Source: Candidatus Odinarchaeota archaeon (lineage in GTDB: Archaea; Asgardarchaeota; Odinarchaeia; Odinarchaeales; Odinarchaeaceae). From it: 32,000 nt of DNA. The stretch is from positions 5,159-37,158 of the forward strand of contig JAWBON010000004.1 in NCBI GenBank assembly GCA_038826135.1, written 5' to 3'. Both the position numbers and the translations under genes were made by a program. Below, one piece after another: positions 2,119 through 31,802 of the stretch (position 1 is the stretch's first letter; each line of letters starts with the position of its first letter). The notes beneath the pieces were generated by a model. The model was not told the DNA's origin and searched no databases. It was given only the letters and a program-made list of their open reading frames with translations.

Positions 2119-3153
2119 ATGAGAGAGACTGTGAAGAAATTGTTTGAAGAAGGCAAAACCGATATTATACCTCTTCAAATAGAGGCGGGTGACCCTTTAA
2201 CTGAAAATATTTACAGTGACATCATAACTGTTTCTGGTAGAATTAGCAGATTCGAATATTTTTACAGGGACGGTGGGCCGTTTAAAAGAGCCTTGAAGCG
2301 TTCAGAATGGGCTGAAAAAATAAATATTAACAGTTATCAATGGCCTTCTGAGAGTGAGCTTTTACCAGATTTTGATAAAAAAATATCCGAGTTTATGGAT
2401 CTGTTAGCTGAAACAGGTAAGTTTAGAATGCTGAAAATATTAGGCCCGACTGAAACAGCTGAAGCGTTCTGCACCGTTAAGACTCCGAACCATCATTATT
2501 CTAAAGATAGATTATCTCACAACTTCGATTACTCATATTTATGTTGGGCTAATTTTCAAGCTGCTGAGGAAATCCATAACCGATTAACCGAGTACATATT
2601 GTACCTGTTAGAAAACTCTAACATGATTCGTTTATTCGATTCTGTGAGAATAGCTGACGACGTGTTTGACTATCACGGTTACCTTTACCCTCCGGAATTT
2701 ATAAGTAAAGTATGGAGACTAAACCATAAAAAAATCAGTTCAACTATTAAGAATCTAGGCGTAACCGCTGTTTTACATACAGACGGTGATCCCTCGCGAG
2801 AGATAGATTTCATAGAGTCAAATTATAACGGTCTCCATCCACTTGACATGATCTCTAAGAACAACTATAGTGAATTATTAGACTGGTTAAATTTAATAGA
2901 AAAACTTATCAGTGGTAGGAGAATAGTGGTCTTCACAGGTTTACCGATAAATTTCTTATATGGTAGTGAGGAGCAATTCACGGTTTTAAAAAAGTTTATA
3001 GTAGAGGATTTGCCGAGGCTTAGAACCATCAGGTTTATTTTAAGCACAACTCATAGACCCTACAGTACAGTAAATATTCGATCTGAAATTATAAAAAACC
3101 GGTATAATGAGATTAAAAAAATAAGAGATATTATTTTAGGTTTTACCCATTAA
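2119..3153 (+). CDS. Uroporphyrinogen decarboxylase-like (URO-D/MtaA-CmuA superfamily) TIM-barrel protein
   Basis: ADD-x-G-x3-PP-EF, LHTDGD and GLHPLD motifs typical of URO-D-like proteins; substrate not assignable. Confidence 0.65.
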
Positions 3154-6914: not shown

Positions 6915-8444
6915 TTATATTTTTGGTTTGAGAAACTTGAACACTGCCACAACCACTATAACTCCGCCAGCGGCTGCTCCGCCTAAAACAGCTATAAGTG
7001 TGGAATCAACACCCTGCGGGGGCTGTTCAGGTTCTTCAGTTACAGTTATTTCAAATGTAGCATAATCATGCAAAGTGTTATTATAGTATATGTCTATTGT
7101 TAACGAATAGTTTCCAGGTGAACTTGGAGCTGTGAGAGTGAAACTCACCGTTTTATTTTCTTCGCTAAGAATTGTAACGGTTTTATTATTTATGCCGGAG
7201 AAGACGGTTGAAGACCAGTTAATAAATGCGTTAACAGCGTCAAGGTCTCCGTGATTACGGATATGTAATTCAATATTGAAGTCTGAGTTTACTGTGGGGT
7301 TAACAAGAGAAATCCCCTGTAAGGTTAAGATCACTGGAGTATACTCGTATTGGAAATTAGCAGAGGAAACAAGTAGCACAGTTTCTATATTCCAGTTGCC
7401 GGAGAGACATCTATCCGTGTACCAGTAGACTACAGCTCCGGTCTTCTCGGAGTAACCGACTGTGATATTCGTATAATATGCTATAACTTCAAAGTGAGAG
7501 TCATTGTAGTAGCTGAAAAATCGAACAGGAGTTAACTTGCCATCAATTAGCATATCCGCGCTCCAGTGAGAAGCAGTATAGTGAATTCCGTCTAGAGTAT
7601 TATTTTCTTGCCATACTAGCCAATGAGTATCCCAGTTAGTCATCACAACATGGTTAACCCAACCACCTGATTCGCTTCTAATATCCTGAGGATTCACAGC
7701 TAAATTCGAAACATAATGTGCTATTTTATAATCTGCGCAGTAGAAGTCTGTCACCAGGTTGTAACTAACATATGTCTCATTAGAAAACAATACCAGTACC
7801 TGATCTACTTGCTTCAAATCTTTAAACCCTGAAGGAAACAAGTATACGGAAGGTGGCTCCTGTTCACTGGAAGAAAGCCACACGACGTCTCTAATCGTTC
7901 CATTCGAACAGTAAAACGTCATATCCACCTGAAATTCAGCTACAGCCCCAGTCCACTCTTCAATGTCCAAAATGTTCCATTGTATAATATCAAAGTTTTT
8001 TGTTAGATTCCCCCCGGATGTTAAGTTCTGATTAATATTAGGCCACCGTGTACACCAGACTACATCCGGCGGACTAGAACTAAGTTCCATAATATCTAAG
8101 TCTATATATTTGATTAACACAGAGTCCACACCTGTACCAGTTAATGAGCCTACTTGCACAGTGAGATTACCTACATTATCCCTATACCAGCCGACCTCCC
8201 AGTAAATTTCATAATACATTTTGAATGTTAACGGAACTCCGTATATTGGATGGGAATAGGTTTTTTGACGCTGAACAAAATTATAGTATGTTGCGTTGCC
8301 GCTCAACACCCATTGTGAACCTGTTGGTAAAACGTAGTTTTCAGGCGGCGAATACGCGGATACTGTGAACGGTATCGCGATCCCTATAAACATGGCTAGG
8401 CAGAGAAGGGGTAATATAGATTTAAGCGGTTTTCTCAAAAGCAA
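6915..8444 (-). CDS. Secreted, C-terminally membrane-anchored surface glycoprotein with Ig-like (CARDB-like) domain
   Basis: Signal peptide ending in VSA, about 14 N-x-S/T sequons, beta-rich C-terminal domain (IRNHGDLDA...APSSPGNYSLTI), Pro/Glu linker, TM helix and basic tail KFLKPKI. Confidence 0.75.
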   Translation of the reverse strand: MLLRKPLKSILPLLCLAMFIGIAIPFTVSAYSPPENYVLPTGSQWVLSGNATYYNFVQRQKTYSHPIYGVPLTFKMYYEIYWEVGWYRDNVGNLTVQVGSLTGTGVDSVLIKYIDLDIMELSSSPPDVVWCTRWPNINQNLTSGGNLTKNFDIIQWNILDIEEWTGAVAEFQVDMTFYCSNGTIRDVVWLSSSEQEPPSVYLFPSGFKDLKQVDQVLVLFSNETYVSYNLVTDFYCADYKIAHYVSNLAVNPQDIRSESGGWVNHVVMTNWDTHWLVWQENNTLDGIHYTASHWSADMLIDGKLTPVRFFSYYNDSHFEVIAYYTNITVGYSEKTGAVVYWYTDRCLSGNWNIETVLLVSSANFQYEYTPVILTLQGISLVNPTVNSDFNIELHIRNHGDLDAVNAFINWSSTVFSGINNKTVTILSEENKTVSFTLTAPSSPGNYSLTIDIYYNNTLHDYATFEITVTEEPEQPPQGVDSTLIAVLGGAAAGGVIVVVAVFKFLKPKI

Positions 8445-10068: not shown

Positions 10069-10548
10069 TTAAATAATTTTTAAACTGTCTGCGAACCTTT
10101 TAAGCTTGCCCATATAATCACCGGTTGAAAGCTCTTTTACAGTGACTTCCATAGTAGCTAAAGATTTTTTACCGCATAAGTCCTCAATTTCCATAAATGC
10201 TTTAGTACTGTTTCCTTTACCGCTGCACGTGCAGAATAAGGCTGTTTGATTTATATGAGATCTAATTTTATCAATATAGGTTCTTATAGCGGGTGTAATA
10301 TTACCAGCCCAGATGGGTGTGCCTATTATCAATAGGTCATAGTCGGAGGCTTGTTTTTCAGGTTCTTTTATAGTGGTTTTTCTTTTTAGAGCCGCATCTT
10401 TACCAGCACCTAAAAAACCTGCGATACCGCTCCGCTTTTTAAGGTCGATTATTTCTTCTATGTCACATTGCACCAGTTCTAAGAGTTTATGAGCTACTGT
10501 TTTAGTTCGACCAGTTCTTGAGTAAAAAACTATGAGGGATTTTACCAT
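10069..10548 (-). CDS. Flavodoxin-family protein
   Basis: FYSRTGRT FMN phosphate loop and IGTPIWAG. Start moved to the ATG at 10548 because the longer ORF overlaps the upstream gene and precedes the fold. Confidence 0.85.
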   Translation of the reverse strand: MVKSLIVFYSRTGRTKTVAHKLLELVQCDIEEIIDLKKRSGIAGFLGAGKDAALKRKTTIKEPEKQASDYDLLIIGTPIWAGNITPAIRTYIDKIRSHINQTALFCTCSGKGNSTKAFMEIEDLCGKKSLATMEVTVKELSTGDYMGKLKRFADSLKII

Positions 10549-10576
10549 AAGATCACTAAATAAGAGTTTATTTAGA

Positions 10577-12178
10577 TTAAACCTTATATGCTTTCTGTAT
10601 GAGTTTTTCCTCAGATCGGGTTGTCTTGCTAAGCTTATTCGAGAAAATGTGGGATGCAACCCTCATAAGACGGCTTTCACCTTTCAAATCCTTTTCTTTC
10701 TGAGCTAGGAAAAACGCCATTAACCGTGTTAACACGGTTATCCCCAGTCCTGAAATAAAATTATGTTTCTCCGTTGTTAACTGGTATAATGGTTCTATGT
10801 ATCTTGCATTATGTTTCCAGCATGTTAAGAGAAGCTTCCAGTGTTCTTTAGACATGTAACCGGAGATGAATGCTTTCATGCCTTTAAGCGTTGTAAACTC
10901 CATTGGTACAAAGAATAATGGTATAAACAGCGACGGGTACTCGCTGAGGCTTTTTATTAAGTCAATAGTTTGGTTAACATCCTCTTTCTCCTCTCCCGGT
11001 AATCCCATCATAAGTGTTCCAACAGAGACCCATTTATTCTGCCACATTACTTTATGAGCTTCTCTAACAACCTCAGGCCATTCATCCGGTTTACAGGGAG
11101 CTGGTTTACCGGCCATATGAAGCTTCATAAGTCTTGAACTGCCAGTTTCTATACCGGGCTGGCAACCGTAATATTTATGCCCGTGTTTTCTGAGAAGCTT
11201 GGTAAGTTTAGCTATTACGTCTGGTTGACATACGAACGGTGATAGGCATGAATGAGTTATGAATATTTCTTTAACGCCTGTTTTAAACCCTTCTTTATAT
11301 AGTGTGAATAAAGCGTCCTCGTCTATTAGGAAATTCTTAGAGCCGTAGCGGAGTGTATCGTCTGAATGGAATGTGATAGCTTTAAAACCAGCTTTAACAT
11401 GAACTTTAATATCGTTTAGTATTTTTTCAAAAGGCATCATCCTCATTTTGCCGCTTGTAGCTGGAACACAGAATTTGCAGCCTCGACCGCAACCTCGAGC
11501 AACTTCAACCAATCCGAATACTGATGGTGTAAGCACGGGTGGGATGTCTTCAGGTTTAGCTATCGGCCCGTATACAACTCTTTCAGGATACTCGCCGCCA
11601 TCTAGTAGAGTGTTGAACACTTTTGGGATAGTATATTCTGCTTCATTAATTAGCAGATAGTCGATTCCAAGTTTGTCAGCAACGCTTATACGGTTTATCT
11701 GCCAGGCTCCAGGTCCGCCTACAATAATTTTTAAACCGTATTTTTCTTTCAATTCACGAACTGGGCCGAACATTAATCTTAGAAATTCCACTCTTGTATG
11801 TGGTATCCCGGAGAATAGCGTGCTCCAGGTTGTTGTTGACGGACCCAGACCTAACGGATCCATAACAGATATGGCTAAAATCTTAGTTTTCTCTGTTACA
11901 ACATTAGTTAGAAAATCAGGGTGAGCTATTTTAACCTCATCTTTAGATATATTGGCTCTGTGAATAACTATAGCTTCAGCTGTTGTTAAGGCTGGTGTAG
12001 CCATACTAACTGTTCCGTCAGGGTTTGAGGGAACAGGAGGGCAGAGTAGAGAGTAGTAAAGGGAGTCAGGGCATACATTAGTGGGAAGGGATGCAGCTAA
12101 CCCCATGTAAAGATTATTTCCATATGTTGTAAGAAGACTCCTATCGGAGGTTAATACTATTTTAGCTTCATCTTTCAA
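10577..12178 (-). CDS. Radical SAM protein with N-terminal B12-binding-like domain
   Basis: CxxxCxxC (RGCGRGCKFC), IIVGGPGAW in the N-terminal domain, GIETGS and MMGLPGE. Confidence 0.85.
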   Translation of the reverse strand: MKDEAKIVLTSDRSLLTTYGNNLYMGLAASLPTNVCPDSLYYSLLCPPVPSNPDGTVSMATPALTTAEAIVIHRANISKDEVKIAHPDFLTNVVTEKTKILAISVMDPLGLGPSTTTWSTLFSGIPHTRVEFLRLMFGPVRELKEKYGLKIIVGGPGAWQINRISVADKLGIDYLLINEAEYTIPKVFNTLLDGGEYPERVVYGPIAKPEDIPPVLTPSVFGLVEVARGCGRGCKFCVPATSGKMRMMPFEKILNDIKVHVKAGFKAITFHSDDTLRYGSKNFLIDEDALFTLYKEGFKTGVKEIFITHSCLSPFVCQPDVIAKLTKLLRKHGHKYYGCQPGIETGSSRLMKLHMAGKPAPCKPDEWPEVVREAHKVMWQNKWVSVGTLMMGLPGEEKEDVNQTIDLIKSLSEYPSLFIPLFFVPMEFTTLKGMKAFISGYMSKEHWKLLLTCWKHNARYIEPLYQLTTEKHNFISGLGITVLTRLMAFFLAQKEKDLKGESRLMRVASHIFSNKLSKTTRSEEKLIQKAYKV

Positions 12179-12225: not shown

Positions 12226-13515
12226 TTAAGATTCTTTTTCGCGTTTAAGTTTAACACTGTTCCCGTTCACTTCAACTATGTTAGCTTCCGATAACTCATT
12301 TATAATTTTTTTAGTCATTAGAGGAGTGTAACCTATTGCAGTATTCAAAGCCTCGATTGAAATCTCGTTAACTGATTCCAGTATTTGTAAAACTTTGAAT
12401 TTAGGCTCTGACACTAAGATTTTTTTAAGTTTCTCTACTCTATTTAACTCCTCTCTCTGCTTAGCGTTGATGCGCTGCAGCTCAGCGTACTCCATTTGAA
12501 GCTGGTTTAATCTTTTATCATATTCGGATGCCCGCCCCAAATCTTTTTTAACTCGTTGCAGCTCGGATTCAAGCTGTTCTACTCTCATCTTACTCTCTTC
12601 AATCTTATTCTTTAATGAATTATTCTCATCAGTAAGTTTTGAAATCTGGTTTTCTAAATCCGCTGCTTGACTGTTTTTCTGAGATAATGCATCCTTTAAT
12701 ATTTTTATTTCAGCCTTGACTTTTGCAGCGTCAATTATATCTTCACCTGCAGGTTTTTCAGACCTCGCAGATTTAAGCTCGTTAAGCTTATTTGTTAAAA
12801 ACATATTCTCCGAGTGTGCTTCAGCTAATTGATTTTGCAGCGATTTCAGTTTATCGTCTACATTTTTTTGTTTGATATTTAACTCGTTTAACTCGTTTTT
12901 ATATATTTCATTCTGTTTTGTTAAAGTTGCAATCTTGGCTTCTAAACTTGCTTTATCTTCCTGGATTGCTAGGTATTCTCTATTTAAATCGTCGAATTTT
13001 CTCTTCAACTCGAGGTAGTCTTTTGCCACTGCATCTTTATCGAAAACATTCTTTTTAAGCTCGCCTATCTGGGCAACGTAGTCTTTTATTATTTTATCCC
13101 TTTTTTCAACTTCAGCTGTAAGGGAGGCTACCTTATCCTCTAGGCTTTTCTTCTCATACTCAAGTCTTTTAACATTGTCTTTCTCGGTTTCAATTATCCT
13201 ATCGAATGTTACGCTTATATCTTGCATTTTATTCGAGAATTTATCACGGACATTCTGCATTAAATATGTTAGGGCCTCTTTAATTTCAGATTTAAACTCG
13301 TTTTTAAGATCTTCAAAGTTTTCATTAATGATTTTATCATACGAGGATGATATCAGAGGAATCACGAATTTTAATCTAACTGTGTCAAACTGGTTTATCA
13401 AAGGGTCCTTTAACTGCTTTAACTGTTCGCTGAATTTAGCAAGCTCTTCATCGAGTGTTTTCATTATCTCCTCTTCAAGTTCGTCGAAAATAGGTTTCGA
13501 CTTATCCTGGCTCAT
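12226..13515 (-). CDS. Long coiled-coil protein with C-terminal winged helix, no ATPase motifs
   Basis: About 250 aa of heptad-rich L/E/K/Q sequence; the C-terminus PKFKVLQIL...ISIEALNTAIG...IINELSEANIVEV is wHTH-like. Likely start ATG 13515 (ORF track: TTG 13524). Confidence 0.7.
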   Translation of the reverse strand: MSQDKSKPIFDELEEEIMKTLDEELAKFSEQLKQLKDPLINQFDTVRLKFVIPLISSSYDKIINENFEDLKNEFKSEIKEALTYLMQNVRDKFSNKMQDISVTFDRIIETEKDNVKRLEYEKKSLEDKVASLTAEVEKRDKIIKDYVAQIGELKKNVFDKDAVAKDYLELKRKFDDLNREYLAIQEDKASLEAKIATLTKQNEIYKNELNELNIKQKNVDDKLKSLQNQLAEAHSENMFLTNKLNELKSARSEKPAGEDIIDAAKVKAEIKILKDALSQKNSQAADLENQISKLTDENNSLKNKIEESKMRVEQLESELQRVKKDLGRASEYDKRLNQLQMEYAELQRINAKQREELNRVEKLKKILVSEPKFKVLQILESVNEISIEALNTAIGYTPLMTKKIINELSEANIVEVNGNSVKLKREKES

Positions 13516-13529
13516 ATTTTTCAACCCCT

Positions 13530-14015
13530 TCAGCCAGATTTGCCCCCGGATTTAAGGCCTTCTTCTAATAATTTTAGAATTTCACTCCACTTCCACTTAC
13601 TTTTTTCGCTGAGCTCTATTTTCTGTCGCACACTCATTCTAAGAAATTTAGCTGTAAATAAGTCGAAGAACGTGTCAACCACGTTTTTAACAACTGGATC
13701 GGTCTTATCATAGTGTACGTAGTATACGTCAGGCTCAGGGTTTGAGAAGCCTATTTTCTCCCTGTCTATTTTAAACCAGTTTAAGACTGCTAAAAATTCT
13801 TTTAAATCTTTTTCCGATAATGTTAACTTTTCAGTTAATTTAGAGTTGACTGAGGTGAAAAGATTTTCTGGAAGGCTTTCAGGAATATTTATCAATGGCT
13901 TGTCAAGTTCTTTTAGAACCTCGTTTTTTGATAGATACTTATCCTCTGTTTTACCTATTATAAGGTTTAAAACCTCTTTTTTAAGGCGTTTAAGGTTTTC
14001 ACCGATCTTCTCCAT
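13530..14015 (-). CDS. Hypothetical soluble protein between pelG and the coiled-coil gene
   Basis: ATG with SD AGGTG overlapping the pelG stop; very short gaps on both sides; no family recognised. Confidence 0.65.
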   Translation of the reverse strand: MEKIGENLKRLKKEVLNLIIGKTEDKYLSKNEVLKELDKPLINIPESLPENLFTSVNSKLTEKLTLSEKDLKEFLAVLNWFKIDREKIGFSNPEPDVYYVHYDKTDPVVKNVVDTFFDLFTAKFLRMSVRQKIELSEKSKWKWSEILKLLEEGLKSGGKSG

Positions 14016-14023
14016 TTAACCAC

Positions 14024-15622
14024 CTAAAGCAGAGTTGAATAAGCCCTATACGGAAATTCCATTATATTCTTCCGTACTAGTTGTAATCCGATTACTGTGC
14101 CCAGCAGGAATGCTGCTATATAGCCGAATACAGCCAGATAAACTGAACCGCTTATAATAGCTAGCAGCGGGCATAAAACAATATTAGCCATAAATGTTAG
14201 TAACATAAGCCAGACGTTTAAACTATGCTGTTCCAGATACATTAAACCTAGGTAGCAGAGTATCGTAGCGGTATGGAATATAACCCCTACAGTAGCCATT
14301 CTGAAAACGAATAGCGCTGCGGGCATGGTTACGCCGAATATTGTTAATTTTGGAGTTAAAGGATCACTTAGATTCAGGAAAACGGATATAATATTCTCGC
14401 CGAAAATGTTTAGTATGATTGAGAAAACTAGTATAACTGACATAGATGTTAGTACTAGTTTTCTGAAAAACTTGTAAAAACCTTTAAGGTTTTCTTCAAG
14501 TTTTGGAAGAGGATCCTTGTATGTTCCTGAAACAGCCTTCTGAAAATTCGGGGTGAAAAGCTCCATTAGAACGGCGATTAATCCCACTCCCGGTATTAGA
14601 ATCCATTGAGCTATGTTTATACCTGTTTCGTAGAAGACGTTGAAAGCTATGAATAAACCGGATGTAGCTTGACCTGAAGAAAACCATATGAAAAATCTGT
14701 CAGCCCATAGAGTTGCGAAGTATAGAGTATTAGCTAAGAAAAGCGCTATAAAATTTTTTAGACTGCCAATTAAGCTAACCCCGCCCTGTCCACCGACTGT
14801 TTTAACCTCTGTTATGTCGTGTTCAATTTTTACCAGAAGTTGCCCGAATTCTTTAACAAGCTTCTGGTACTCTTCTAGGAATATCTCACCTTTTTCAAAC
14901 CTGTTTCGTATATCCTCTAAGATCTTGAAAAGAGCAACTCTTCTAGCAGCTAATTCCGCGGCGACATTCTTACCGCTTTTTAAAATAATGTTGAGATATA
15001 TGAATGTGCCAATAGATGCTGTGAAAAAGCCTAAGCTTTGAAAGGCTATAACCCCGCTCACACCGAATGTTAAAGCTCCTAAAACGGAGAGAGCGTAGCC
15101 TGCGATACTGCTTACTGCAAATATCGCTGTTAACTGGCCGAACTTTCTTAAACCTATTATAGGGGCGACTGCAACCCATAGAAACGATAATGCTGAGAAT
15201 TGAACTGCGAAAAGTAGACTGGTGAGTAAGCCGCCGGTTAACATGTTCTCTAAGCCGATAGCTATCGATGATGCGATTAAACAGAGAACCCCTGTTAACG
15301 CATATATTTTTAAAGTGAATCTTCCAGCGGTTTTATTATCACCCACCGCGATCTTATCTAAAACTATTTTAGTCTCTAAAGCTTGGAATCCTGCTGTTAA
15401 AATCAGGCTAAGAGGGGTTGCTAAGCTTATTACAAGACCTAAAGTTGCTCTTTCAGCCGGCAGTAGAGCTGAAGCTATGTAGTAACCAACTATTGTAGAA
15501 CATACTATTACGAGAAGCCATGGGCCGTTAGCAAGAATACTGTATGATAAAAACCTGCCTAAAAGCCTTATTTTAGTATCTTTTCTACGTTTAAGCTGTA
15601 TTTTCTCAATACTGGTTTCCAT
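14024..15622 (-). CDS. pelG: Pel exopolysaccharide transporter PelG-like, with a cytoplasmic helical insert
   Basis: PelG-type motifs ANGPWLL, LWADRFFIWF and YE...IA...IP; about 12 TM; adjacent to pelF. Start ATG 15622 (SD AGGTG plus 6 nt). Confidence 0.75.
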   Translation of the reverse strand: METSIEKIQLKRRKDTKIRLLGRFLSYSILANGPWLLVIVCSTIVGYYIASALLPAERATLGLVISLATPLSLILTAGFQALETKIVLDKIAVGDNKTAGRFTLKIYALTGVLCLIASSIAIGLENMLTGGLLTSLLFAVQFSALSFLWVAVAPIIGLRKFGQLTAIFAVSSIAGYALSVLGALTFGVSGVIAFQSLGFFTASIGTFIYLNIILKSGKNVAAELAARRVALFKILEDIRNRFEKGEIFLEEYQKLVKEFGQLLVKIEHDITEVKTVGGQGGVSLIGSLKNFIALFLANTLYFATLWADRFFIWFSSGQATSGLFIAFNVFYETGINIAQWILIPGVGLIAVLMELFTPNFQKAVSGTYKDPLPKLEENLKGFYKFFRKLVLTSMSVILVFSIILNIFGENIISVFLNLSDPLTPKLTIFGVTMPAALFVFRMATVGVIFHTATILCYLGLMYLEQHSLNVWLMLLTFMANIVLCPLLAIISGSVYLAVFGYIAAFLLGTVIGLQLVRKNIMEFPYRAYSTLL

Positions 15623-15631
15623 TGAAGACAC

Positions 15632-15744
15632 CTATAATTTTTATGAAGATTATAATAATATTTAATGATATAATTTTATATTTAAGAATATGACAATAAA
15701 TATAATAAAGTTTTGCGAAAAATATAGTGCTCAGGTGAATTGAA
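15632..15744. promoter_or_regulatory. AT-rich divergent promoter region shared by pelG and pelF
   Basis: 113-nt head-to-head gap with several TATA-like tracts (TTTTATATTTAA, TATATAATAAA). Confidence 0.45.
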
Positions 15745-17154
15745 TTGAAAAATCTCAGAGTTTGCCTAGTCACAGAGGGAACTTACCCTTACGTGGTTGG
15801 CGGTGTAAGTTCATGGGTTCACAGGTTAATTACACAGTTAAAGGATGTAACATTCGAAGTTCTCGCTATAGTTCCGGCAGGTGAATTAAAAGAGAAGTAT
15901 TCTATTCCGCCGAACCTGAAAAATATTTACAGGATCCCGATAATTGATGAAGAGAAATTCACTCAACCCAAGATTAAAACCGGAGAGTACTATGAGAAAT
16001 ATATCCGAACAGTTAAATGGCTCCACCAGTATCTTGGTGAAGATGACTTCAATAACGCTTCAGAATACTTGGTGAAGCTGCACTCACAGCTTGAAAACGA
16101 GAGACCACGGTTTTGGGCTAGTAAACCAGGATGGGAATACTTGAAGAAGCAATACTCTAACCTTAAAGAAGCCCCTTCAATGATCGAATGGATACTTGCG
16201 TGGAAGGATACCCATATACCTTTATTGAATCTAACAGCCAGTCTTATACCTGAAGCTGATATTTACCACGCTACTAACAGCGGGTTCGCCGGGTTTTTAG
16301 CTATTATAGGAGCTATGAAACATAATAAGCCGTCCATAATAACAGATCACGGGATATTCTTAAGGGAAAGACTTATGGAGTTGAGCAAAGCTAAAATAAA
16401 AGGTTTAGCTGAAGAAATGTGGCTGGATGTTTTAACCGGTCTTAGTAGACTAATATACACTAACGCAACCCTGGTAACATCTGTATGTAATTATAATGTT
16501 AACTGGGTTACTGAGAAGCTGAGAATACCACGCGATAAATTCAAGGTAATATATAATGGAGTTGATCCTGAACGGCTAAAACCTGTAGAAACACCTAAAC
16601 CACCTTATAGAGTGGTTGGAAGCATAAGCCGCGTCCACCCGATTAAAGATATAAAAACGTTCATAAAAGCAGCGGACATAGTTTTGAAAAAGGAAGGTAA
16701 TGTAAAATTCTTCGTAGTAGGACCTGTAGACGATCAGAAATATTATAAAGAATGCTTAAATCTCATCAAGAAATTAGGTATAAGCGAAAACTTCATTTTC
16801 ACAGGCTCGAGAGGAGAGGACATATTATACTGGTATAATCTCTTCGACATATTTGTTTTATCAAGCATTTCCGAGGGGTTCCCGATGTCAACGATTGAGG
16901 CGATGGCCTGCGGCACACCGGTTATAGTAACAGATGTCGGTGGAGCTGCAGAGCCTGTTGAAGACTGCGGTTACGTTATACCTTCCGGAGACGCGGAGCA
17001 GCTTGCACAGCGAATACTTGAAATACTTCAAAGCAAAGAGGTAGCGGAAAAATTCTCTGAAAACGCCCGGCGAAAAGTAGTAGAGAAATTCTCATTATCA
17101 AAAATCATGAGCGAATACGAGAAGGTCTACCAGGAGTTAGCGGTTAAAAAATAG
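15745..17154 (+). CDS. pelF: GT4 glycosyltransferase PelF-like (DUF3492-type N-terminus plus GT4 domain)
   Basis: TEGTYPYVVGGVSSW, YHATNSGFAG, TDHGIFLRER, RVHPIKDIKTFI and E-x7-E (EGFPMSTIE). SD AGGTGA plus 6 nt before the TTG. Confidence 0.85.
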   Translation: MKNLRVCLVTEGTYPYVVGGVSSWVHRLITQLKDVTFEVLAIVPAGELKEKYSIPPNLKNIYRIPIIDEEKFTQPKIKTGEYYEKYIRTVKWLHQYLGEDDFNNASEYLVKLHSQLENERPRFWASKPGWEYLKKQYSNLKEAPSMIEWILAWKDTHIPLLNLTASLIPEADIYHATNSGFAGFLAIIGAMKHNKPSIITDHGIFLRERLMELSKAKIKGLAEEMWLDVLTGLSRLIYTNATLVTSVCNYNVNWVTEKLRIPRDKFKVIYNGVDPERLKPVETPKPPYRVVGSISRVHPIKDIKTFIKAADIVLKKEGNVKFFVVGPVDDQKYYKECLNLIKKLGISENFIFTGSRGEDILYWYNLFDIFVLSSISEGFPMSTIEAMACGTPVIVTDVGGAAEPVEDCGYVIPSGDAEQLAQRILEILQSKEVAEKFSENARRKVVEKFSLSKIMSEYEKVYQELAVKK

Positions 17155-17164
17155 TATAGGGGGC

Positions 17165-17860
17165 TTATACCGCAACCCCCTCGTCAGGCTTAAACATTGG
17201 TTCAAGAGCACTAGGCGCTTTCTCTGGTTTCTTCTCCTCGCTTTTAGCAGCCTTCTCTTTTTTAGGTAGAATATAGCCGCCGATCTTCCCCCCTATAGCT
17301 CCGAAAACTATTGCTAGAACAACGTTTACTACAAGTGCCATTAATAACGGCTGAATAAAAGTGCCTATTAAAGTTGATATGTCAAAGCCACCGCCCATAC
17401 CTGATAATACAAAAGTGATTATTGAGTCGACTAGGCCGCCTATAACGGGAGCGCTTAAAATTTTAATAATATCAACCCCTAACGGGGGGCTTGTTATAAG
17501 AGACATTAACTGGGCTTGAGCGGTTGGATTAGTCATAACCGTGAAAAAGCTTAGAACTCCGAAACCGACCATTAATATGAATCCGAAGAACAGTGTTGAA
17601 ATAGCTACAGCGATACCGCCTTTAGCGCTACCGGCTATTAAACCACCTACTAAAGCAGCTCCTATCAATATAGAAATATGAAGAAGATCATCATAGGGGC
17701 CTATTAAAGCGTAAAACCCTGTTAAAATAACAGTTAGATTTAATCCGAAAACTGGCTCAAACCAGGTTATCAACATAGAATAGCCTTCAGGTAGGAACAA
17801 TAATGTTAAACCGAATATCATCGCTAAAGCTACGATCCAGCCTAATAGTTTACTACCCGT
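17165..17860 (-). CDS. Multi-pass membrane protein of unknown function, probably starting at ACG
   Basis: 5-6 Gly-rich hydrophobic segments and a charged C-tail. SD GGAGGTG lies 5 nt before the in-frame ACG at 17860, which completes TM1 (MGSKLLGWIVALAMIFGLTLLFLP); first ATG is 17821. Confidence 0.7.
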   Translation of the reverse strand, partial: TGSKLLGWIVALAMIFGLTLLFLPEGYSMLITWFEPVFGLNLTVILTGFYALIGPYDDLLHISILIGAALVGGLIAGSAKGGIAVAISTLFFGFILMVGFGVLSFFTVMTNPTAQAQLMSLITSPPLGVDIIKILSAPVIGGLVDSIITFVLSGMGGGFDISTLIGTFIQPLLMALVVNVVLAIVFGAIGGKIGGYILPKKEKAAKSEEKKPEKAPSALEPMFKPDEGVAV

Positions 17861-17996: not shown

Positions 17997-19515
17997 CTAA
18001 GCCATAAGTTTGTTAATAGCTTCAATTATAGCTTCAACACCGGCAATCACTATATCTTCACTAGAACCTCTGGAGGTAAAAACCCTCTTATTTTCATCCT
18101 CGATTGTGACAACAGTCTCAGCGACGGCTTGAGTTCCCCCTGTTATCGCTTCTAATCTAAACTCTTTAAGTTTGAACGGCGCAACCTCCTCGCTTGCGTT
18201 TCTTATAGCGTTTATAGCAGCATCTATAGGACCCACACCGTTAGCTGCAACTATAACAGGTTTACCCCCTATGTGAAGTTTAACAGTGGCGGTGGGGTTT
18301 ATCCTATTACCTGTAACCACTAGAATATCTTCAAGCTTAATCCTTTTCATATCCGGTGGCAGACTTTGAATAACCGCCCTAGCGATCGAACTTATATCCG
18401 CATCTGTAACCGTGATCCCCTTATCACCTAGTGATTTTATCTTTTCAACTATTATTTTTAACTGTTCAGGCGTGTATTTGAAACCTAAATTATCCAGGAT
18501 TTTACCAACACCGTGACCTCCACTCTGCTTCCCTGCAACTATCCTGCTTTTAGCCCCTATCTCCTCAGGCGATATGGGTTCATACGTCATAGGTGATTCT
18601 ATAACACCGTGAGCGTGAATCCCACTTTCATGTGAAAAAGCATTCTGGCCAACTACCGCCTTATTCGGAGCCAAAGGAATTCCTGTAATTCGCATTATTC
18701 TCTGGGAGGTTTCATAAATCTTCGAGTAATCTAGGTTAAGTTTAACCCCATACATGTATTTTAACGCTACAGCTACTTCTTCAAGAGAGGCGTTACCGGC
18801 TCTTTCTCCAAGACCGTTAACACAGCAGTGAGGTTGAACAACCCCCTCCTCTATTCCAGCTAAAGTATTAGCCACCGCCAAGCCCATATCATTATGGCAA
18901 TGTACAGAGATATTAGCTCTTGTAATGCTTTTAACTTCGCGCACTATTTTTTTCATAGCTATCGGGATAGCTACACCTACAGTATCAGGTATATCAAGGT
19001 ATGCGGCGCCGGCTTCGGAGACCTTTCTAAAAACCTCTTTTAAAAAGTCAAGTCTAGTTCTTGTAGCATCTTCAGCTGAGAATTCAACTTCTATTCCATG
19101 ATCTCTGATATATTCAACAGCCCAGACCGCTCTCTCCACAACCTGTTGGGGATCCATGTGCAGCTTATATTTCATGTGAATTTCGCTGGTAGCTATAAAA
19201 GTATGAATCCTAGATACACTGCAATCTATGGCTTTATCAATATCCTCTTTCTTAGTTCTAGCTAAAGCGCATATTTTCGCTTTAAGCCCCTCATTAGCTA
19301 TCTGCCTGACTGCTTTAGCCTCACCCTCACTTGCAATCGGAAAACCCGCTTCTATAACATCAACCCGTAGTTCATCTAGTAAATGAGCTATCTCTACTTT
19401 ATCATCACTTGTTAAAGCAACACCAGGAGTTTGCTCACCATCCCTAAGTGTTGTGTCAAAAACATATATTTTTTCAGGTAAACTATCAAAGGAGAAAAAT
19501 ATTCCTCCACGCCAA
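17997..19515 (-). CDS. leuA: 2-isopropylmalate synthase; needs a +1 frameshift near codons 7-9 (about 505 aa)
   Basis: DTTLRDGEQTPG, IEAGFP, RIHTFIATS, HCHNDMG, GERAGNA, FSHESGIH and a C-terminal regulatory domain (GVGPIDA). The catalytic frame is open from 19487 with no ATG/GTG/TTG until 19175. CimA is not fully excluded. Confidence 0.8.
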
Positions 19516-19526
19516 TTTCCACACCT
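19483..19526 (-). promoter_or_regulatory. Candidate leader and +1 frameshift cassette of leuA
   Basis: AGGTG, 6 nt, then TTG GCG TGG AGG AAT ATT TTT CTC CTT TGA TAG. The +1 frame continues TTC TCC TTT GAT AGT TTA CCT GAA AAA. Confidence 0.4.
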
Positions 19527-19585
19527 ACCAGTATTATATCTTTAAAAACGGTGTCTAAAACAGTATATTAACCTTATTCCGGTGT

Positions 19586-20181: not shown

Positions 20182-21129
20182 ATGAACGGGGGGTTCGGAA
20201 TAATTCATAACATATACATCTTAGACACTAACGGTATTCCCATCTTCACCCGTATTTACGGTGAGATAAAGGTGGATCCGACTTTAATCTCAGGGTACAT
20301 CAGCGCGCAGAGCTCGTTCTTTAAAGAGATTACAGGCCAGGACCTAGAAATGTTCGCAACTAAAGATTATAATTTCTGGCTTAGAAGAGTCGGCAGATTT
20401 CTCATAGTAATCGTCACTAGTAAAGACGTTGACCCGAAAATCATGAAGTGGAAACTATCTCAGATTCAACTAGCATTTATTATGAACCTTGAAAAAGATT
20501 CTTTAAAAACGATGATCGATTCAGTCACATTTAACTCCCTTAATTTTATTTTAGATAACACCAGGTCTGATGATTTAACCACTATAATTAAACATTTAAT
20601 CTTAGGAATCACTATTATAATAGTGGGACAGAATAGGGAGAGCGTTGCTAAATATATTTACACATTATTAACTGTCTCACCTGTTTATAAGGAAACATAC
20701 TTTTACGAGGATAGAAATGTTTTTTCAGATGGGGCTATAATAGGATCGATTAAAACAGATATAAACAGTATTTTAAGCGATAAAAGTTTCCTTTACTATG
20801 AATTTGAAACCAGCATTATTAAACTTAACAATTTAACCTTTGATTTAAATAAAAAAGCTTTAAGCGATTTCATAAGCGACTTGATCTCAAAGTGCAGAAG
20901 TATGAGTGAGATAACAGGCATAGATTTTATCAGAAATAATCTGAGGAGAATACTGAGAGGAAAGACCGCTATTAAAGAGATAATTATTAAGAAGGGAAAA
21001 CTAAGATTTGAAGACATAATAAACAGTTTAAAGATAAGTGAAGATGATTTTCCAGCAATTTTAGAGCTGTTGCAAGATGATTTAAAAAACATTATAATTG
21101 AAGATGACTCTATTTATTATCAAGGGTGA
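20182..21129 (+). CDS. Longin-domain protein with DENN/folliculin-like middle region and C-terminal winged helix
   Basis: Longin pattern IHNIYILDTNGIPIF...LISGYISAQSSFFKEITG; middle HLILGITIIIVG...YTLLTVSP; C-terminal KEIIIKKGKLRFEDIINSLKIS...ILELL. Confidence 0.65.
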   Translation: MNGGFGIIHNIYILDTNGIPIFTRIYGEIKVDPTLISGYISAQSSFFKEITGQDLEMFATKDYNFWLRRVGRFLIVIVTSKDVDPKIMKWKLSQIQLAFIMNLEKDSLKTMIDSVTFNSLNFILDNTRSDDLTTIIKHLILGITIIIVGQNRESVAKYIYTLLTVSPVYKETYFYEDRNVFSDGAIIGSIKTDINSILSDKSFLYYEFETSIIKLNNLTFDLNKKALSDFISDLISKCRSMSEITGIDFIRNNLRRILRGKTAIKEIIIKKGKLRFEDIINSLKISEDDFPAILELLQDDLKNIIIEDDSIYYQG

Positions 21130-30122: not shown

Positions 30123-31802
30123 GTGATGGTTTACCCTGAATTAATAGATAAGGGAACAATAAATATAAAAATAGATGATATAGAAAAGAGGAAGCCTCTC
30201 TCAAAGGAGGATGAACTTCATTTTAAAGGTGTTTCAGTAGGTGTAACCTACAGCTTCAACCTCTGGGTGAGTGAAAAACACAGGGGGAGGTACGGTTCAA
30301 GATATTTATACGGGGATAAATTTATAGATTTTAATTCCGGTCCTTTTAACAGTGAAAGACTTGAAAAAAAACTAGAAAATATGTTATACTGGAAAGAGGA
30401 TAAAATAGAACTTCTAAAAAAAATATCAGGTTCAAACTGGGGTATTTACTGGTCCGGTGTTACCGGTGGCCAGGATAGGGTTGACAGAATACTTTTCTCA
30501 GAAACTTATTTAAATAACACACCGTTTATACATTTTGAACTGGAACCTATTGAAATAATCAACCCATTATCTCTTAAAGCATACGATACTACGGTTAACG
30601 ATTGGAAGACTACAGGCAACAGTGTTAAAGGCTATATTAGAAGACTTCTAACAGTTTACAGGTGCGGGTTTATAAATTTAACATATTTTTTGATTTTAAG
30701 CTCTGTTAGAAAAGAGTGGCTGGATAGAGTACCCCATTTAACTGTGAAACAGGGTTTAACAGTCGATGAATTAATCTTTATTTTAATAAAGAAATTAAAA
30801 GGTTTTAAACCTAGAATAGGTGAGAAGACGAATTTAGACCAGCAGGCTATAACCGACTTTATAGAGATAATCGGTAAAATTTATGATTTAGATGAACAGG
30901 AAAGTAAGAGTATTATTGATTATTTAGTGGATAAAACATCTATTAACTACTATTCGATATGTATATGGGATGTAGAGTGTAAATGTGAAGAGAAGCATTT
31001 GAATGCTGTAGATATTATCAGAAACCATCCTTGGGAGATATACGGGTTAAGAGGACCTGACAGGCAGTGGATGAATAGAAAATCAGAATATATAATTGAT
31101 TCAGTTTCAGACTGGTTTAACCCCTATTCAGACATAGTGTTTAAACCTTTCCCACGAGTACATGTTGAGGTAACATTCCCTCTTATAAGACGCAGATCAC
31201 TTATCTCGATGGGTCCTTTTTCACCCCCTCAAAGACTCTGGGAGTTGAGAATTGTACAAGAGAAGGTTTTAAGAACATTTAACAAAATGCTTAGCGAGGA
31301 GACTTCTAAACTTTCAAAAACACTTAAAGTTGAGGATTTAATTGAAACTGTTAAGAATGTTACAAGTATTAGAAGAAGAATCATAGGTGTCTTAGAAGAT
31401 TTATACTGGTTGTCTAATAACATCAACCATATACCTGATAGAAATTATCTAAATTACACTCAAGCAGTGGCTGGCTTAAATAATATGAAGAACACGCTCT
31501 TCGAGAAAATAAACCATTTAGTGGAGATATCTAGAGATGAGACTAATATAGCCAATCTAGATGTAGGTTCAAGAATGAGTCTGATAAGAACATACGCTTC
31601 TGTGCTCAGCATATTTTTAGCAACCATAATTACACTGGCGAATTCGCTTTCTAACATTTATATCTGGATGCTGGGGCCTAGACCGGAAGTGCTGACACTA
31701 CCAGAGCAGCTTATGATAATCTTACAAATATTCGGGTTAAACGCCGCTTTCCTAGTGCCTGTTATTATAATAATATGGAGAATATTCAAGAAATTTAAGT
31801 AG
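30123..31802 (+). CDS. Hypothetical protein: large soluble region, helical bundle and two C-terminal TM helices (distantly CorA/RMD1-like architecture)
   Basis: 559-aa ORF with amphipathic helices before two hydrophobic segments and a basic tail; no GMN motif. Confidence 0.55.
   Translation: MMVYPELIDKGTINIKIDDIEKRKPLSKEDELHFKGVSVGVTYSFNLWVSEKHRGRYGSRYLYGDKFIDFNSGPFNSERLEKKLENMLYWKEDKIELLKKISGSNWGIYWSGVTGGQDRVDRILFSETYLNNTPFIHFELEPIEIINPLSLKAYDTTVNDWKTTGNSVKGYIRRLLTVYRCGFINLTYFLILSSVRKEWLDRVPHLTVKQGLTVDELIFILIKKLKGFKPRIGEKTNLDQQAITDFIEIIGKIYDLDEQESKSIIDYLVDKTSINYYSICIWDVECKCEEKHLNAVDIIRNHPWEIYGLRGPDRQWMNRKSEYIIDSVSDWFNPYSDIVFKPFPRVHVEVTFPLIRRRSLISMGPFSPPQRLWELRIVQEKVLRTFNKMLSEETSKLSKTLKVEDLIETVKNVTSIRRRIIGVLEDLYWLSNNINHIPDRNYLNYTQAVAGLNNMKNTLFEKINHLVEISRDETNIANLDVGSRMSLIRTYASVLSIFLATIITLANSLSNIYIWMLGPRPEVLTLPEQLMIILQIFGLNAAFLVPVIIIIWRIFKKFK

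What the first reader, a model, noticed from the sequence alone, without database searches (positions are those of the whole stretch)
14024..17154. Pel-like exopolysaccharide synthase module in a probable Asgard archaeon
Seen: clear PelF and PelG motif sets, head-to-head across 113 nt; no pelD, pelE, pelA-type deacetylase or epimerase in the window. Established: bacterial Pel synthesis uses a PelDEFG complex activated by c-di-GMP binding to PelD and makes an alpha-1,4 GalNAc-rich polymer; fungal galactosaminogalactan is a similar polymer made by a GT4 synthase. Inference: a minimal, differently regulated archaeal matrix or glycocalyx system. I know of no characterised archaeal Pel pathway.
Basis: partly seen in the sequence, partly recalled or inferred. 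Interest (0 to 1): 0.78.

Follow-up and report, generated by a model that had tools for sequence, protein, structure and literature searches.

The report
Pel-like polysaccharide cassette in Odinarchaeia
A hot-spring Asgard archaeon (Odinarchaeia) carries real but very divergent relatives of the bacterial biofilm-sugar genes pelF and pelG, inherited as a four-gene block without the bacterial c-di-GMP control parts; this is a new variant of a known system, so far supported only by computation.

Summary
Window 14024-15631(-) encodes a PelG-family membrane protein (Pfam 90 bits, cut-off 29). Window 15745-17154(+) encodes a PelF-family GT4 glycosyltransferase (NCBIfam 243 bits, cut-off 100) with intact R-x4-K and E-x7-E motifs. 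The genes are head-to-head across 113 nt (122 nt from the likelier ATG start). Close homologues are named Candidatus Odinarchaeia, so the host is an Asgard archaeon.

The system is not minimal. The sister family has the two flanking genes directly adjacent, so pelG and pelF are gained or lost together with two unknown cytoplasmic genes (orf161 and a coiled-coil/winged-helix protein) as one four-gene block, 12226-17154. Another contig carries a second PelF, a 1298-aa protein joining a deacetylase-like ectodomain to a PelG-like membrane domain, and a GalE-like epimerase.

Among 400 Asgard species genomes, PelF and this PelG type occur in the same six. No GGDEF or GH114 was found, and the PelD search was uninformative. 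Asgard PelGs share a ~60-residue cytoplasmic insert that bacterial PelGs lack.

The gene names are already in public annotation, and a 2021 paper mentions the Odin PelG homologues in one sentence. This scan had already described the second locus. Product and regulation are inferred. Verdict: new variant of a known kind, moderate interest.

The parts
12226..13524 (-). Gene for a 432-aa cytoplasmic coiled-coil protein ending in a winged helix (P0004); last gene of the pelG operon
   Evidence: No hydrophobic segments and only coiled-coil-type Pfam hits. The L011 orthologue (27% identity, E 8e-33) hits HTH_24 at its C-terminus, 22.8 bits against a cut-off of 21.9; the window's own copy gives only MarR at 14.7 bits. 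There is a 5-nt gap to orf161. The gene is part of the block missing from the sister family.
13530..14015 (-). orf161 (P0003): soluble alpha/beta protein of no known family, 8 nt downstream of pelG
   Evidence: No Pfam, NCBIfam-type or PADLOC hit. The AF2 model has pLDDT 80.8 and pTM 0.71, with no convincing fold match in PDB or the Atlas. It is conserved in every Odin-type pel locus in which that flank of pelG is on the contig (34% identity in L011). It was found in 4 of 4 genomes of the Pel-positive genus and 0 of 3 in the Pel-negative sister family.
14024..15631 (-). pelG: PelG/EPS-E family polytopic membrane protein (MOP superfamily); likely start is the ATG at 15622
   Evidence: PF16933 at 90.2 bits, cut-off 29. 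Hydropathy shows about 6 + 6 hydrophobic segments. An exhaustive search found only 22 relatives at E<=1e-3; the full-length ones, where named or placed, come from Asgard archaea.
14744..14980 (-). Asgard-specific insert of about 60-75 residues in PelG (residues ~218-296), between hydrophobic segments 6 and 7; inferred to be cytoplasmic
   Evidence: Alignment A1 shows the insert in all 9 Asgard-type PelGs and in none of 5 bacterial PelGs. It is hydrophilic and helical-looking. The N-terminal tail has 8 Lys/Arg and the insert follows six segments, so it is placed inside by the positive-inside rule, which is an inference. No Pfam match.
15674..15717 (.). Conserved AT-rich 44-nt block in the pelG/pelF intergenic region; candidate shared divergent promoter (TATA-like runs) and operator
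   Evidence: Alignment A5 of six loci shows most of the intergenic invariant columns within this block, and the block is kept in L011, whose PelF is only 58% identical. Its function is inferred, not shown.
15745..17154 (+). pelF: cytoplasmic GT4 glycosyltransferase with the PelF-specific DUF3492 N-terminal domain
   Evidence: NF038011 at 243 bits, cut-off 100; DUF3492 at 213 bits. TEGTYPYxxGGVSxW, R296-x4-K301 and E377-x7-E385 align with bacterial PelFs. dN/dS is 0.05 against the congener G303.
17165..17821 (-). Flanking gene, not part of the cassette: 218-aa Gly-rich polytopic membrane protein (P0005), convergent with pelF
   Evidence: Present in all 7 genomes of the class, including the three Pel-negative ones, where it lies directly beside the radical-SAM gene.

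Best explanation
The finding is the core of an Asgard-type, c-di-GMP-independent Pel-like polysaccharide synthase.

Shown. pelF encodes a PelF-family retaining GT4 with its catalytic motifs intact. pelG encodes a very divergent PelG-family polytopic membrane protein. The two are divergently arranged around a conserved 44-nt AT-rich block. They form one heritable four-gene cassette (12226-17154) with orf161 and a coiled-coil/winged-helix protein. The cassette co-occurs with a second locus holding PelF2, a CE4-like ectodomain fused to a PelG-like membrane domain, and a GalE-like epimerase.

Inferred mechanism. PelF polymerises a UDP-hexose, most likely UDP-GalNAc or UDP-GlcNAc, at the cytoplasmic face of the membrane. 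It is held there by PelG, possibly through PelG's Asgard-specific cytoplasmic insert and the two accessory proteins, which would stand in for bacterial PelD and PelE. PelG passes the chain across the single archaeal membrane. Outside, the CE4-like ectodomain of the second locus partly deacetylates it, giving a cationic, adhesive surface or matrix polymer. Control is not by c-di-GMP. It is probably transcriptional or by scaffolding, through the winged-helix coiled-coil protein.
For: Family scores are over the curated cut-offs, and the PelF motifs are conserved.

The four-gene block is a clean indel. In three genomes of the sister family, TBP, the radical-SAM gene and the 218-aa membrane-protein gene lie directly adjacent. 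In the own genus the coiled-coil gene, orf161, pelG and pelF lie between the last two. orf161 occurs only where Pel occurs. The accessory genes keep their places in L011, where the outer flanks differ, although the adjacent 218-aa membrane-protein gene is shared.

Phyletic profile over 400 Asgard species genomes: Asgard-type PelG in 6, plus one spurious partial hit, and PelF over its cut-off in the same 6.

Second locus: PelF2 scores 195 bits on the PelF model. The C-terminal 470 aa of the 1298-aa protein align to the Asgard PelG profile (hhalign 95.6%, E 1.3e-8, 420 columns). Its ectodomain is homologous (E 8e-50) to a 665-aa protein beside pelG in another presumed Asgard locus, and that protein passes the Polysacc_deac_1 cut-off. 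S-H-S-x-T-H is invariant. The 1298-aa protein was not found in the Pel-negative sister family but was found in G001.

GlmS and a GalE-like epimerase are present. No GGDEF was found in five Pel-positive genomes, while 8 control genomes rang. dN/dS is 0.05-0.10 for all four cassette genes.
Against: No expression, product or binding data exist. The substrate is inferred only by analogy with bacterial Pel.

PelG is so divergent that no NCBIfam model matched it, and bacterial PelGs match only at E 1e-9 to 1e-4. The transport role of PelG is itself unproven in bacteria (my knowledge).

The window genome's own CE4-like region scores below the Pfam cut-off (17.7-19.3 bits), its first Asp motif is D-x-D rather than D-D, and its AF2 model failed.

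orthologues of orf161 and the coiled-coil protein are confined to Odin-type loci, so they are not general Asgard Pel parts. dS is near saturation, so the dN/dS values are rough. The PelD_GGDEF search rang in no control genome, so its blank says little.
Confidence: 0.65

Rival explanations
1. The pair acts in a lipid-linked glycan pathway rather than in synthase-type exopolysaccharide secretion. PelF adds sugar(s) to a dolichol-linked or membrane-lipid acceptor, and PelG, a MOP-superfamily member like the Wzx flippases, flips the product for protein or S-layer glycosylation or for a glycolipid.
For: PelG belongs to the MOP flippase superfamily (TC 2.A.66.6, PMC7997004). The second-rank NCBIfam hits of PelF, all far below their cut-offs, include glycolipid and small-acceptor GT4s such as BshA, MshA and GlcNAc-phosphatidylglycerol synthase. 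No polymer-specific accessory such as a hydrolase or a TPR scaffold was found.
Against: PelF matches the PelF equivalog model end to end at 243 bits, while all other GT4 models stay far below their cut-offs. The PelF-specific DUF3492 domain is present. Co-occurrence with an extracytoplasmic CE4-like domain fused to a PelG-like domain fits modification of a secreted polymer.
Confidence: 0.17
2. The cassette is an inactive or decaying remnant of a gene transfer from bacteria and has no present function.
For: Distribution in Asgard archaea is patchy: 6 of 400 species genomes, absent from the sister family. The Asgard PelFs group with a Fervidobacterium/Spirochaete-type bacterial PelF clade (SH-aLRT 99), consistent with an inter-domain transfer at some time.
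Against: All four ORFs are intact in every Odin-type locus seen. dN/dS is 0.05-0.10. The catalytic motifs are intact. The Asgard PelF1 rows group together (SH-aLRT 82) and the insert-bearing PelGs, where named or placed, come from Asgard archaea, so the genes have been resident for a long time. A 44-nt intergenic block is conserved.
Confidence: 0.05
3. The GT4 is part of a conflict or defence system that glycosylates a phage or cell target. This is suggested by the Pfam 'GT4-conflict' hit and by the SMC-like coiled-coil neighbour.
For: PF20706 GT4-conflict scores 30.9 bits against a cut-off of 26 on PelF. The coiled-coil protein gives weak hits to the JetC and LmuB coiled-coil regions in PADLOC.
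Against: The GT4-conflict hit lies under far stronger general GT4 and PelF matches. PelF, PelG, orf161 and P0005 have no PADLOC hit. The JetC and LmuB hits cover only coiled-coil stretches, and no ATPase-head domain turned up in the Pfam or PADLOC scans. A polytopic PelG partner is not a feature of the defence GT4 systems I know of (my knowledge).
Confidence: 0.03

Closest known systems
Gram-positive pel operon, pelDEA(DA)FG of Bacillus cereus (PMC7112194 and its companion paper)
   Same: It has a PelF GT4 synthase and a PelG membrane protein, needs a separate CE4-type deacetylase, has no outer-membrane parts (PelB, PelC), and works across a single membrane.
   Different: The bacterial system has PelD (GAF plus degenerate GGDEF, a c-di-GMP receptor) and PelE. 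Here no GGDEF domain was found in five genomes, the PelD_GGDEF search was uninformative, and the cassette has no membrane-anchored partner. Instead it carries orf161 and a coiled-coil/wHTH protein. PelG carries a ~60-residue insert. The genes are split over at least two loci, and the deacetylase-like domain is fused to a second PelG-like domain.
Pseudomonas aeruginosa pelABCDEFG (PelDEFG synthase complex, PelA, PelBC export)
   Same: PelF has the same domain architecture and the same R-x4-K and E-x7-E motifs, and PelG belongs to the same Pfam family.
   Different: No PelA GH114/GH166 hydrolase was found. PelB and PelC are not expected in an archaeon and were not tested. There is no sign of c-di-GMP control. 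Bacterial PelGs match this PelG only at E 1e-9 or worse.
Thermotogota/Spirochaete-type pel loci (L022, L023), the nearest bacterial PelF clade in the tree
   Same: PelF groups with the Asgard PelF1 and PelF2 rows (SH-aLRT 99). These loci also use a non-PelA, deacetylase-superfamily ectoprotein (DUF2194/DUF2334) next to pelF.
   Different: L023 still has a GAF protein in the PelD position, a canonical 458-aa PelG without the insert, and a TPR PelB-like protein. The Asgard CE4-like ectodomain shows no BLAST-level similarity to DUF2194.
Other Asgard Pel-like loci (Heimdall-type L013/G397; L012, L019, L020, L021)
   Same: They share the PelF1 group, the PelF2 paralogue, the insert-bearing PelG and the CE4-like ectodomain protein.
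   Different: In those loci the neighbours are TackOD1 plus an Arf/Ras-like small GTPase, and in the Heimdall type PelG is itself fused to the CE4 domain (1353-1387 aa). orf161 and the coiled-coil/wHTH protein were not found in the fetched stretches. In this genome the TackOD1-GTPase pair lies on another contig.

Membership tests
PelF (NCBIfam NF038011; GT4 with DUF3492) | Full-length match to the PelF equivalog model above its 100-bit cut-off, with the DUF3492 N-terminal domain | tested here: met
   243.1 bits, residues 6-462 on profile positions 2-489; DUF3492 at 213 bits
PelF (NCBIfam NF038011; GT4 with DUF3492) | GT4 catalytic and nucleotide-sugar motifs R-x4-K and E-x7-E | tested here: met
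   R296...K301 and E377...E385 align with six bacterial or archaeal PelFs
PelF (NCBIfam NF038011; GT4 with DUF3492) | Uses UDP-GalNAc to make an alpha-1,4 GalNAc/GalN polymer | not testable with these tools
   Needs an enzyme assay or analysis of the product
PelG (Pfam PF16933, TC 2.A.66.6 EPS-E) | Match above the 29-bit gathering score over both halves of the profile | tested here: met
   90.2 bits in two stretches; six-frame hits on profile positions 28-214 and 223-451
PelG (Pfam PF16933, TC 2.A.66.6 EPS-E) | Twelve transmembrane segments with no large soluble domain | tested here: inconclusive
   Crude hydropathy gives about 6 + 6 hydrophobic segments, but a ~60-75-residue hydrophilic insert that bacterial PelGs lack splits them. 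No NCBIfam model matched at E<=0.01.
Bacterial PelDEFG synthase complex | PelD: membrane-anchored GAF plus degenerate GGDEF c-di-GMP receptor | tested here: not met
   PF16963 gave no hit in the genome, but it rang in no control either. GGDEF PF00990 gave no hit in 5 Pel-positive Asgard genomes, one of them complete, while 8 of 14 controls rang.
Bacterial PelDEFG synthase complex | PelE: small inner-membrane protein with TPR-like repeats, encoded in the operon | tested here: not met
   Both extra cassette proteins lack hydrophobic segments and TPR hits. No PelE model was available to search the whole genome.
Pel modification and export (PelA, PelB, PelC) | PelA: GH114/GH166-type hydrolase joined to a CE4 deacetylase | tested here: not met
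   GH114 PF03537 gave no hit in the genome, while controls rang in 3. Only a CE4-like domain exists, on the 1298-aa protein of contig C17. It scores below the Pfam cut-off in this genome and above it in two homologues.
Pel modification and export (PelA, PelB, PelC) | PelB/PelC outer-membrane TPR porin and lipoprotein | not tested
   Not expected in a single-membrane archaeon. No TPR protein was seen among the window ORFs scanned.
Fungal galactosaminogalactan cluster (Gtb3, Agd3, Ega3, Sph3, Uge3) | Large membrane-embedded synthase together with Agd3 deacetylase and GH135/GH114 hydrolases | not tested
   No fungal sequences were compared. GH114 is absent from the genome. The resemblance is functional analogy only.

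The most novel reading that the evidence does not exclude
Asgard archaea run a Pel-like surface-polysaccharide synthase under lineage-specific, non-nucleotide control. In most Asgard loci a TackOD1 zinc-ribbon protein and a eukaryote-like Arf/Ras small GTPase sit beside pelG and pelF. In Odinarchaeia they are replaced in the cassette by orf161 and a coiled-coil/winged-helix protein, and PelG's Asgard-specific cytoplasmic insert is the docking site. [quoted passage not shown]
Probability: 0.2. Interest if true: 0.8.

Novelty: new variant of a known kind. Interest (0 to 1): 0.55.

Why it matters
I know of no Pel pathway characterised in archaea, and the papers I searched describe none. The systematic survey of pel operons never mentions archaea (PMC7112194).

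Asgard archaea are thought to live in tight physical partnerships, and what they put on their surface bears on models of eukaryogenesis. A conserved, selectable cassette for an adhesive, probably cationic polymer gives a concrete target for lectin staining, glycomics and heterologous expression.

The system also offers a natural experiment on how a synthase of this type is controlled without c-di-GMP. The clean presence/absence of the cassette between sister families gives a ready comparison.

Tried and rejected
- Complex prediction of PelG with orf161 gave no answer (score 0.00). This is neither for nor against binding.
- AF2 of the CE4-like region of the 1298-aa protein failed with only three sequences (pLDDT 36.8). 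A profile search of PDB gave only weak hits (E 0.06-0.4), three of the four to NodB/CE4 deacetylases.
- orf161: the Atlas feature search gave no usable hit. Foldseek against PDB gave nothing at E<=0.001. The Atlas shape search gave TM<=0.5 to unrelated DUFs.
- P0005: the Atlas gave no hit. I first took it for a fifth cassette gene and rejected that.
- RNA evidence: no RNA holder is listed. One hot-spring run labelled metatranscriptomic but probably DNA holds >=99%-identical fragments of the coiled-coil gene, orf161 and pelF. It shows no pelG, but contigs prove nothing either way.
- BLAST of the Asgard CE4-like ectodomains against bacterial DUF2194 proteins found no similarity.
- TackOD1 as a Pel-specific marker: rejected, since it occurs in 107 of 400 Asgard genomes.
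- Defence-system reading: PADLOC gave no hit for PelF, PelG or orf161.
- The PelG insert and the N-terminus of the coiled-coil protein gave no meaningful Pfam match.
- One outgroup row in the tree (OUT_GT4_C52_2) was a non-GT4 membrane protein that I added by mistake. Its placement should be ignored.
Full report
**Observation**

ORF 14024-15631(-), 535 aa, matches Pfam PelG (PF16933) at 90.2 bits against a cut-off of 29. ORF 15745-17154(+), 469 aa, matches the NCBIfam PelF equivalog NF038011 end to end at 243 bits against a cut-off of 100, and carries the PelF-specific DUF3492 domain plus GT4 domains.

The gap is 113 nt. Orthologues start at the Met aligned with residue 4, so the real pelG start is probably the ATG at 15622, which makes the gap 122 nt. 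pelF starts at a TTG behind a GGTGA site.

PelF keeps the TEGTYPYxxGGVSxW box, R296-x4-K301 and E377-x7-E385, aligned with bacterial PelFs.

I scanned 37 window ORFs against Pfam: every ORF of 120 aa or more on the list except four embedded inside larger genes on the opposite strand. They are housekeeping genes or unknowns (TBP, thermosome, CorA, FeoAB, LarC-type nickel insertion protein, LeuA and others). None is a further polysaccharide gene.

**Organism**

The closest PelF and PelG homologues (66-95% identity) are named Candidatus Odinarchaeia. The genome is 1.26 Mb in 105 contigs at 93% completeness. A congener, G303, is a complete single contig of 1,418,269 bp. 'Probable Asgard archaeon' is therefore correct.

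**The unit is four genes, not two**

Downstream of pelG lie orf161 (8-nt gap) and a 432-aa coiled-coil protein (5-nt gap).

- Both are conserved in L011, a relative whose PelF is only 58% identical and whose outer flanks differ: 34% identity (E 5e-27) and 27% identity (E 8e-33).
- The L011 coiled-coil orthologue has a C-terminal HTH_24 hit over the cut-off.
- Neither protein has a hydrophobic segment.

The decisive result is synteny in the sister family (three genomes, Pel-negative). There, TBP, the radical-SAM gene and the 218-aa membrane-protein gene lie directly adjacent. In the own genus the block coiled-coil gene / orf161 / pelG / pelF sits between the last two.

- orf161 is found in 4 of 4 genomes of the own genus and 0 of 3 in the sister family.
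- The 218-aa membrane protein is in all 7 genomes, so it is a flanking gene rather than a member.
- dN/dS against G303 is 0.05-0.10 for all four genes; dS is 1.7-2.0, near saturation.
- A 44-nt AT-rich block in the divergent intergenic region (15674-15717) is conserved even in L011.

**A divergent, Asgard-type subfamily**

An exhaustive HMMER search of 1.84 billion representatives found only 22 proteins at E<=1e-3. Seven matched over essentially the full length of PelG, six of 505-528 aa and one a 1379-aa fusion. Typical bacterial PelGs appear only at E 1e-9 to 1e-4. The nine Asgard-type PelGs aligned share a ~60-residue hydrophilic insert between hydrophobic segments 6 and 7 that five bacterial PelGs lack. 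By the positive-inside rule it faces the cytoplasm, which is an inference.

In a quick maximum-likelihood tree of 65 rows:

- the Asgard PelF1 sequences form one group (SH-aLRT 82);
- a shorter paralogue, PelF2, forms another (96);
- both join a Fervidobacterium/Spirochaete-type bacterial PelF clade (99);
- a Hecatellales archaeal PelF lies elsewhere.

The PelF2 rows have long end branches and the tree tool flags long-branch joins, so their placement is provisional.

This fits one old inter-domain transfer followed by duplication. Direction and date were not tested.

**Distribution**

Among 400 Asgard species genomes, the Asgard-type PelG occurs in 6, plus one spurious partial hit, and PelF over its cut-off occurs in exactly the same 6. 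These are the four members of the own genus and two distant families, one of which has PelG fused into a 1387-aa protein. The system is rare and patchy, and its parts are strictly linked.

**Second locus**

On contig C17 lie PelF2 (436 aa; 195 bits on the PelF model), a recombinase-like zinc-ribbon protein, a 1298-aa ORF, a KaiC-like ATPase, and a GalE-like SDR epimerase (212.6 bits, below the GalE cut-off of 262.3).

- The C-terminal 470 residues of the 1298-aa ORF align to the Asgard PelG profile (hhalign 95.6%, E 1.3e-8, 420 columns).
- Its ectodomain is homologous (E 8e-50) to a 665-aa protein encoded beside pelG in locus L021.
- That protein and the N-terminus of the Heimdall-type fusion both pass the Polysacc_deac_1 cut-off (25 and 30.9 bits). 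The window genome's own copy scores 17.7-19.3 bits.
- S-H-S-x-T-H is invariant.
- The 1298-aa protein was not found in the Pel-negative sister family but was found in G001.

I reached this before reading the scan's earlier notes, which describe the same locus. A structure model of the CE4-like region failed, so deacetylase activity remains a reasonable inference and is not a finding.

**What is missing**

- No PelD_GGDEF hit. That model rang in no control genome, so the blank is weak.
- No GGDEF domain in five Pel-positive Asgard genomes, one of them complete, while 8 of 14 controls rang.
- No GH114.

c-di-GMP control is therefore very unlikely. GlmS is present.

**Other Asgard loci**

In L012, L013, L019 and L020 the pel genes sit beside a TackOD1 zinc-ribbon protein and an Arf/Ras-like small GTPase. 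In this genome that pair lies on contig C10. TackOD1 occurs in 107 of 400 Asgard genomes, so it is not Pel-specific. Its function is unknown (PMC5847659). orf161 and the coiled-coil protein were not found in the fetched stretches of those loci. The accessory and regulatory layer therefore differs between Asgard lineages.

**Mechanism**

Shown: family membership, intact motifs, cassette inheritance, co-occurrence with the second locus, and purifying selection.

Inferred: PelF polymerises a UDP-hexosamine at the membrane. PelG translocates the chain, with its insert, orf161 and the coiled-coil protein acting as scaffold or regulator in place of PelD and PelE. The CE4-like ectodomain deacetylates the polymer outside the cell.

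Rivals: a lipid-linked glycan pathway (0.17), a dead transfer remnant (0.05) and a defence GT4 system (0.03).

**Prior knowledge**

NCBI already names the homologues PelF and PelG. PMC7997004 (2021) notes that Odin alone among the Asgard MAGs it studied has EPS-E family homologues and may use them in biofilm formation. The systematic pel survey never mentions archaea (PMC7112194). Searches for Asgard or Odinarchaeota with Pel, polysaccharide or glycosyltransferase terms found no analysis of this system.

**Verdict**

This is a real feature: a new variant of a known kind, of moderate interest. The system is not minimal, and it is not unannotated.

Noticed in passing
window 17997-19541 (-): The LeuA/isopropylmalate-synthase-like gene is open for 514 codons, but its first ATG/GTG/TTG is at 19175 (392 aa). 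The 122 codons upstream encode the canonical N-terminus, including IYVFDTTLRDGEQ. The complete congener G303 shows the same, with a conserved GGAGGA-ATA just upstream, so a non-canonical start (ATA?) is possible.
   Followed up: partly
L016 7780-9617 (G000:C10); loci L012, L013, L019, L020: A TackOD1 zinc-ribbon protein paired with an Arf/Ras-like small GTPase lies next to pelG/pelF in four non-Odin Asgard loci, but on a separate contig in this genome. TackOD1 is in 107 of 400 Asgard genomes.
   Followed up: partly
L013 12837-16898; G397:C38: A Heimdall-type single ORF of 1353-1387 aa fuses a CE4 deacetylase domain (over the Pfam cut-off) and Ig-like domains to an insert-bearing PelG.
   Followed up: partly
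window 20182-21129 (+): A 315-aa protein with a Fuz/MON1/HPS1-type first longin domain (26.3 bits, cut-off 26.1), a eukaryotic-signature-type protein. A homologue lies near the same place in the sister family.
   Followed up: no
window 10069-10659 (-) and 10577-12178 (-): The flavodoxin-like ORF as listed overlaps the 533-aa radical-SAM gene by 83 nt. The homologue in L010 is 159 aa, so the real start is probably further downstream.
   Followed up: no
L015 3247-4254 (G000:C17): A phage-integrase-fold protein with a C-terminal double zinc ribbon sits between PelF2 and the 1298-aa fusion. An earlier scan note says its catalytic residues are replaced.
   Followed up: no
window 6915-8444 (-), 2119-3153 (+), 30123-31802 (+): Three sizeable ORFs (509, 344 and 559 aa) have no Pfam family over its cut-off. 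The first has a weak CARDB hit.
   Followed up: no
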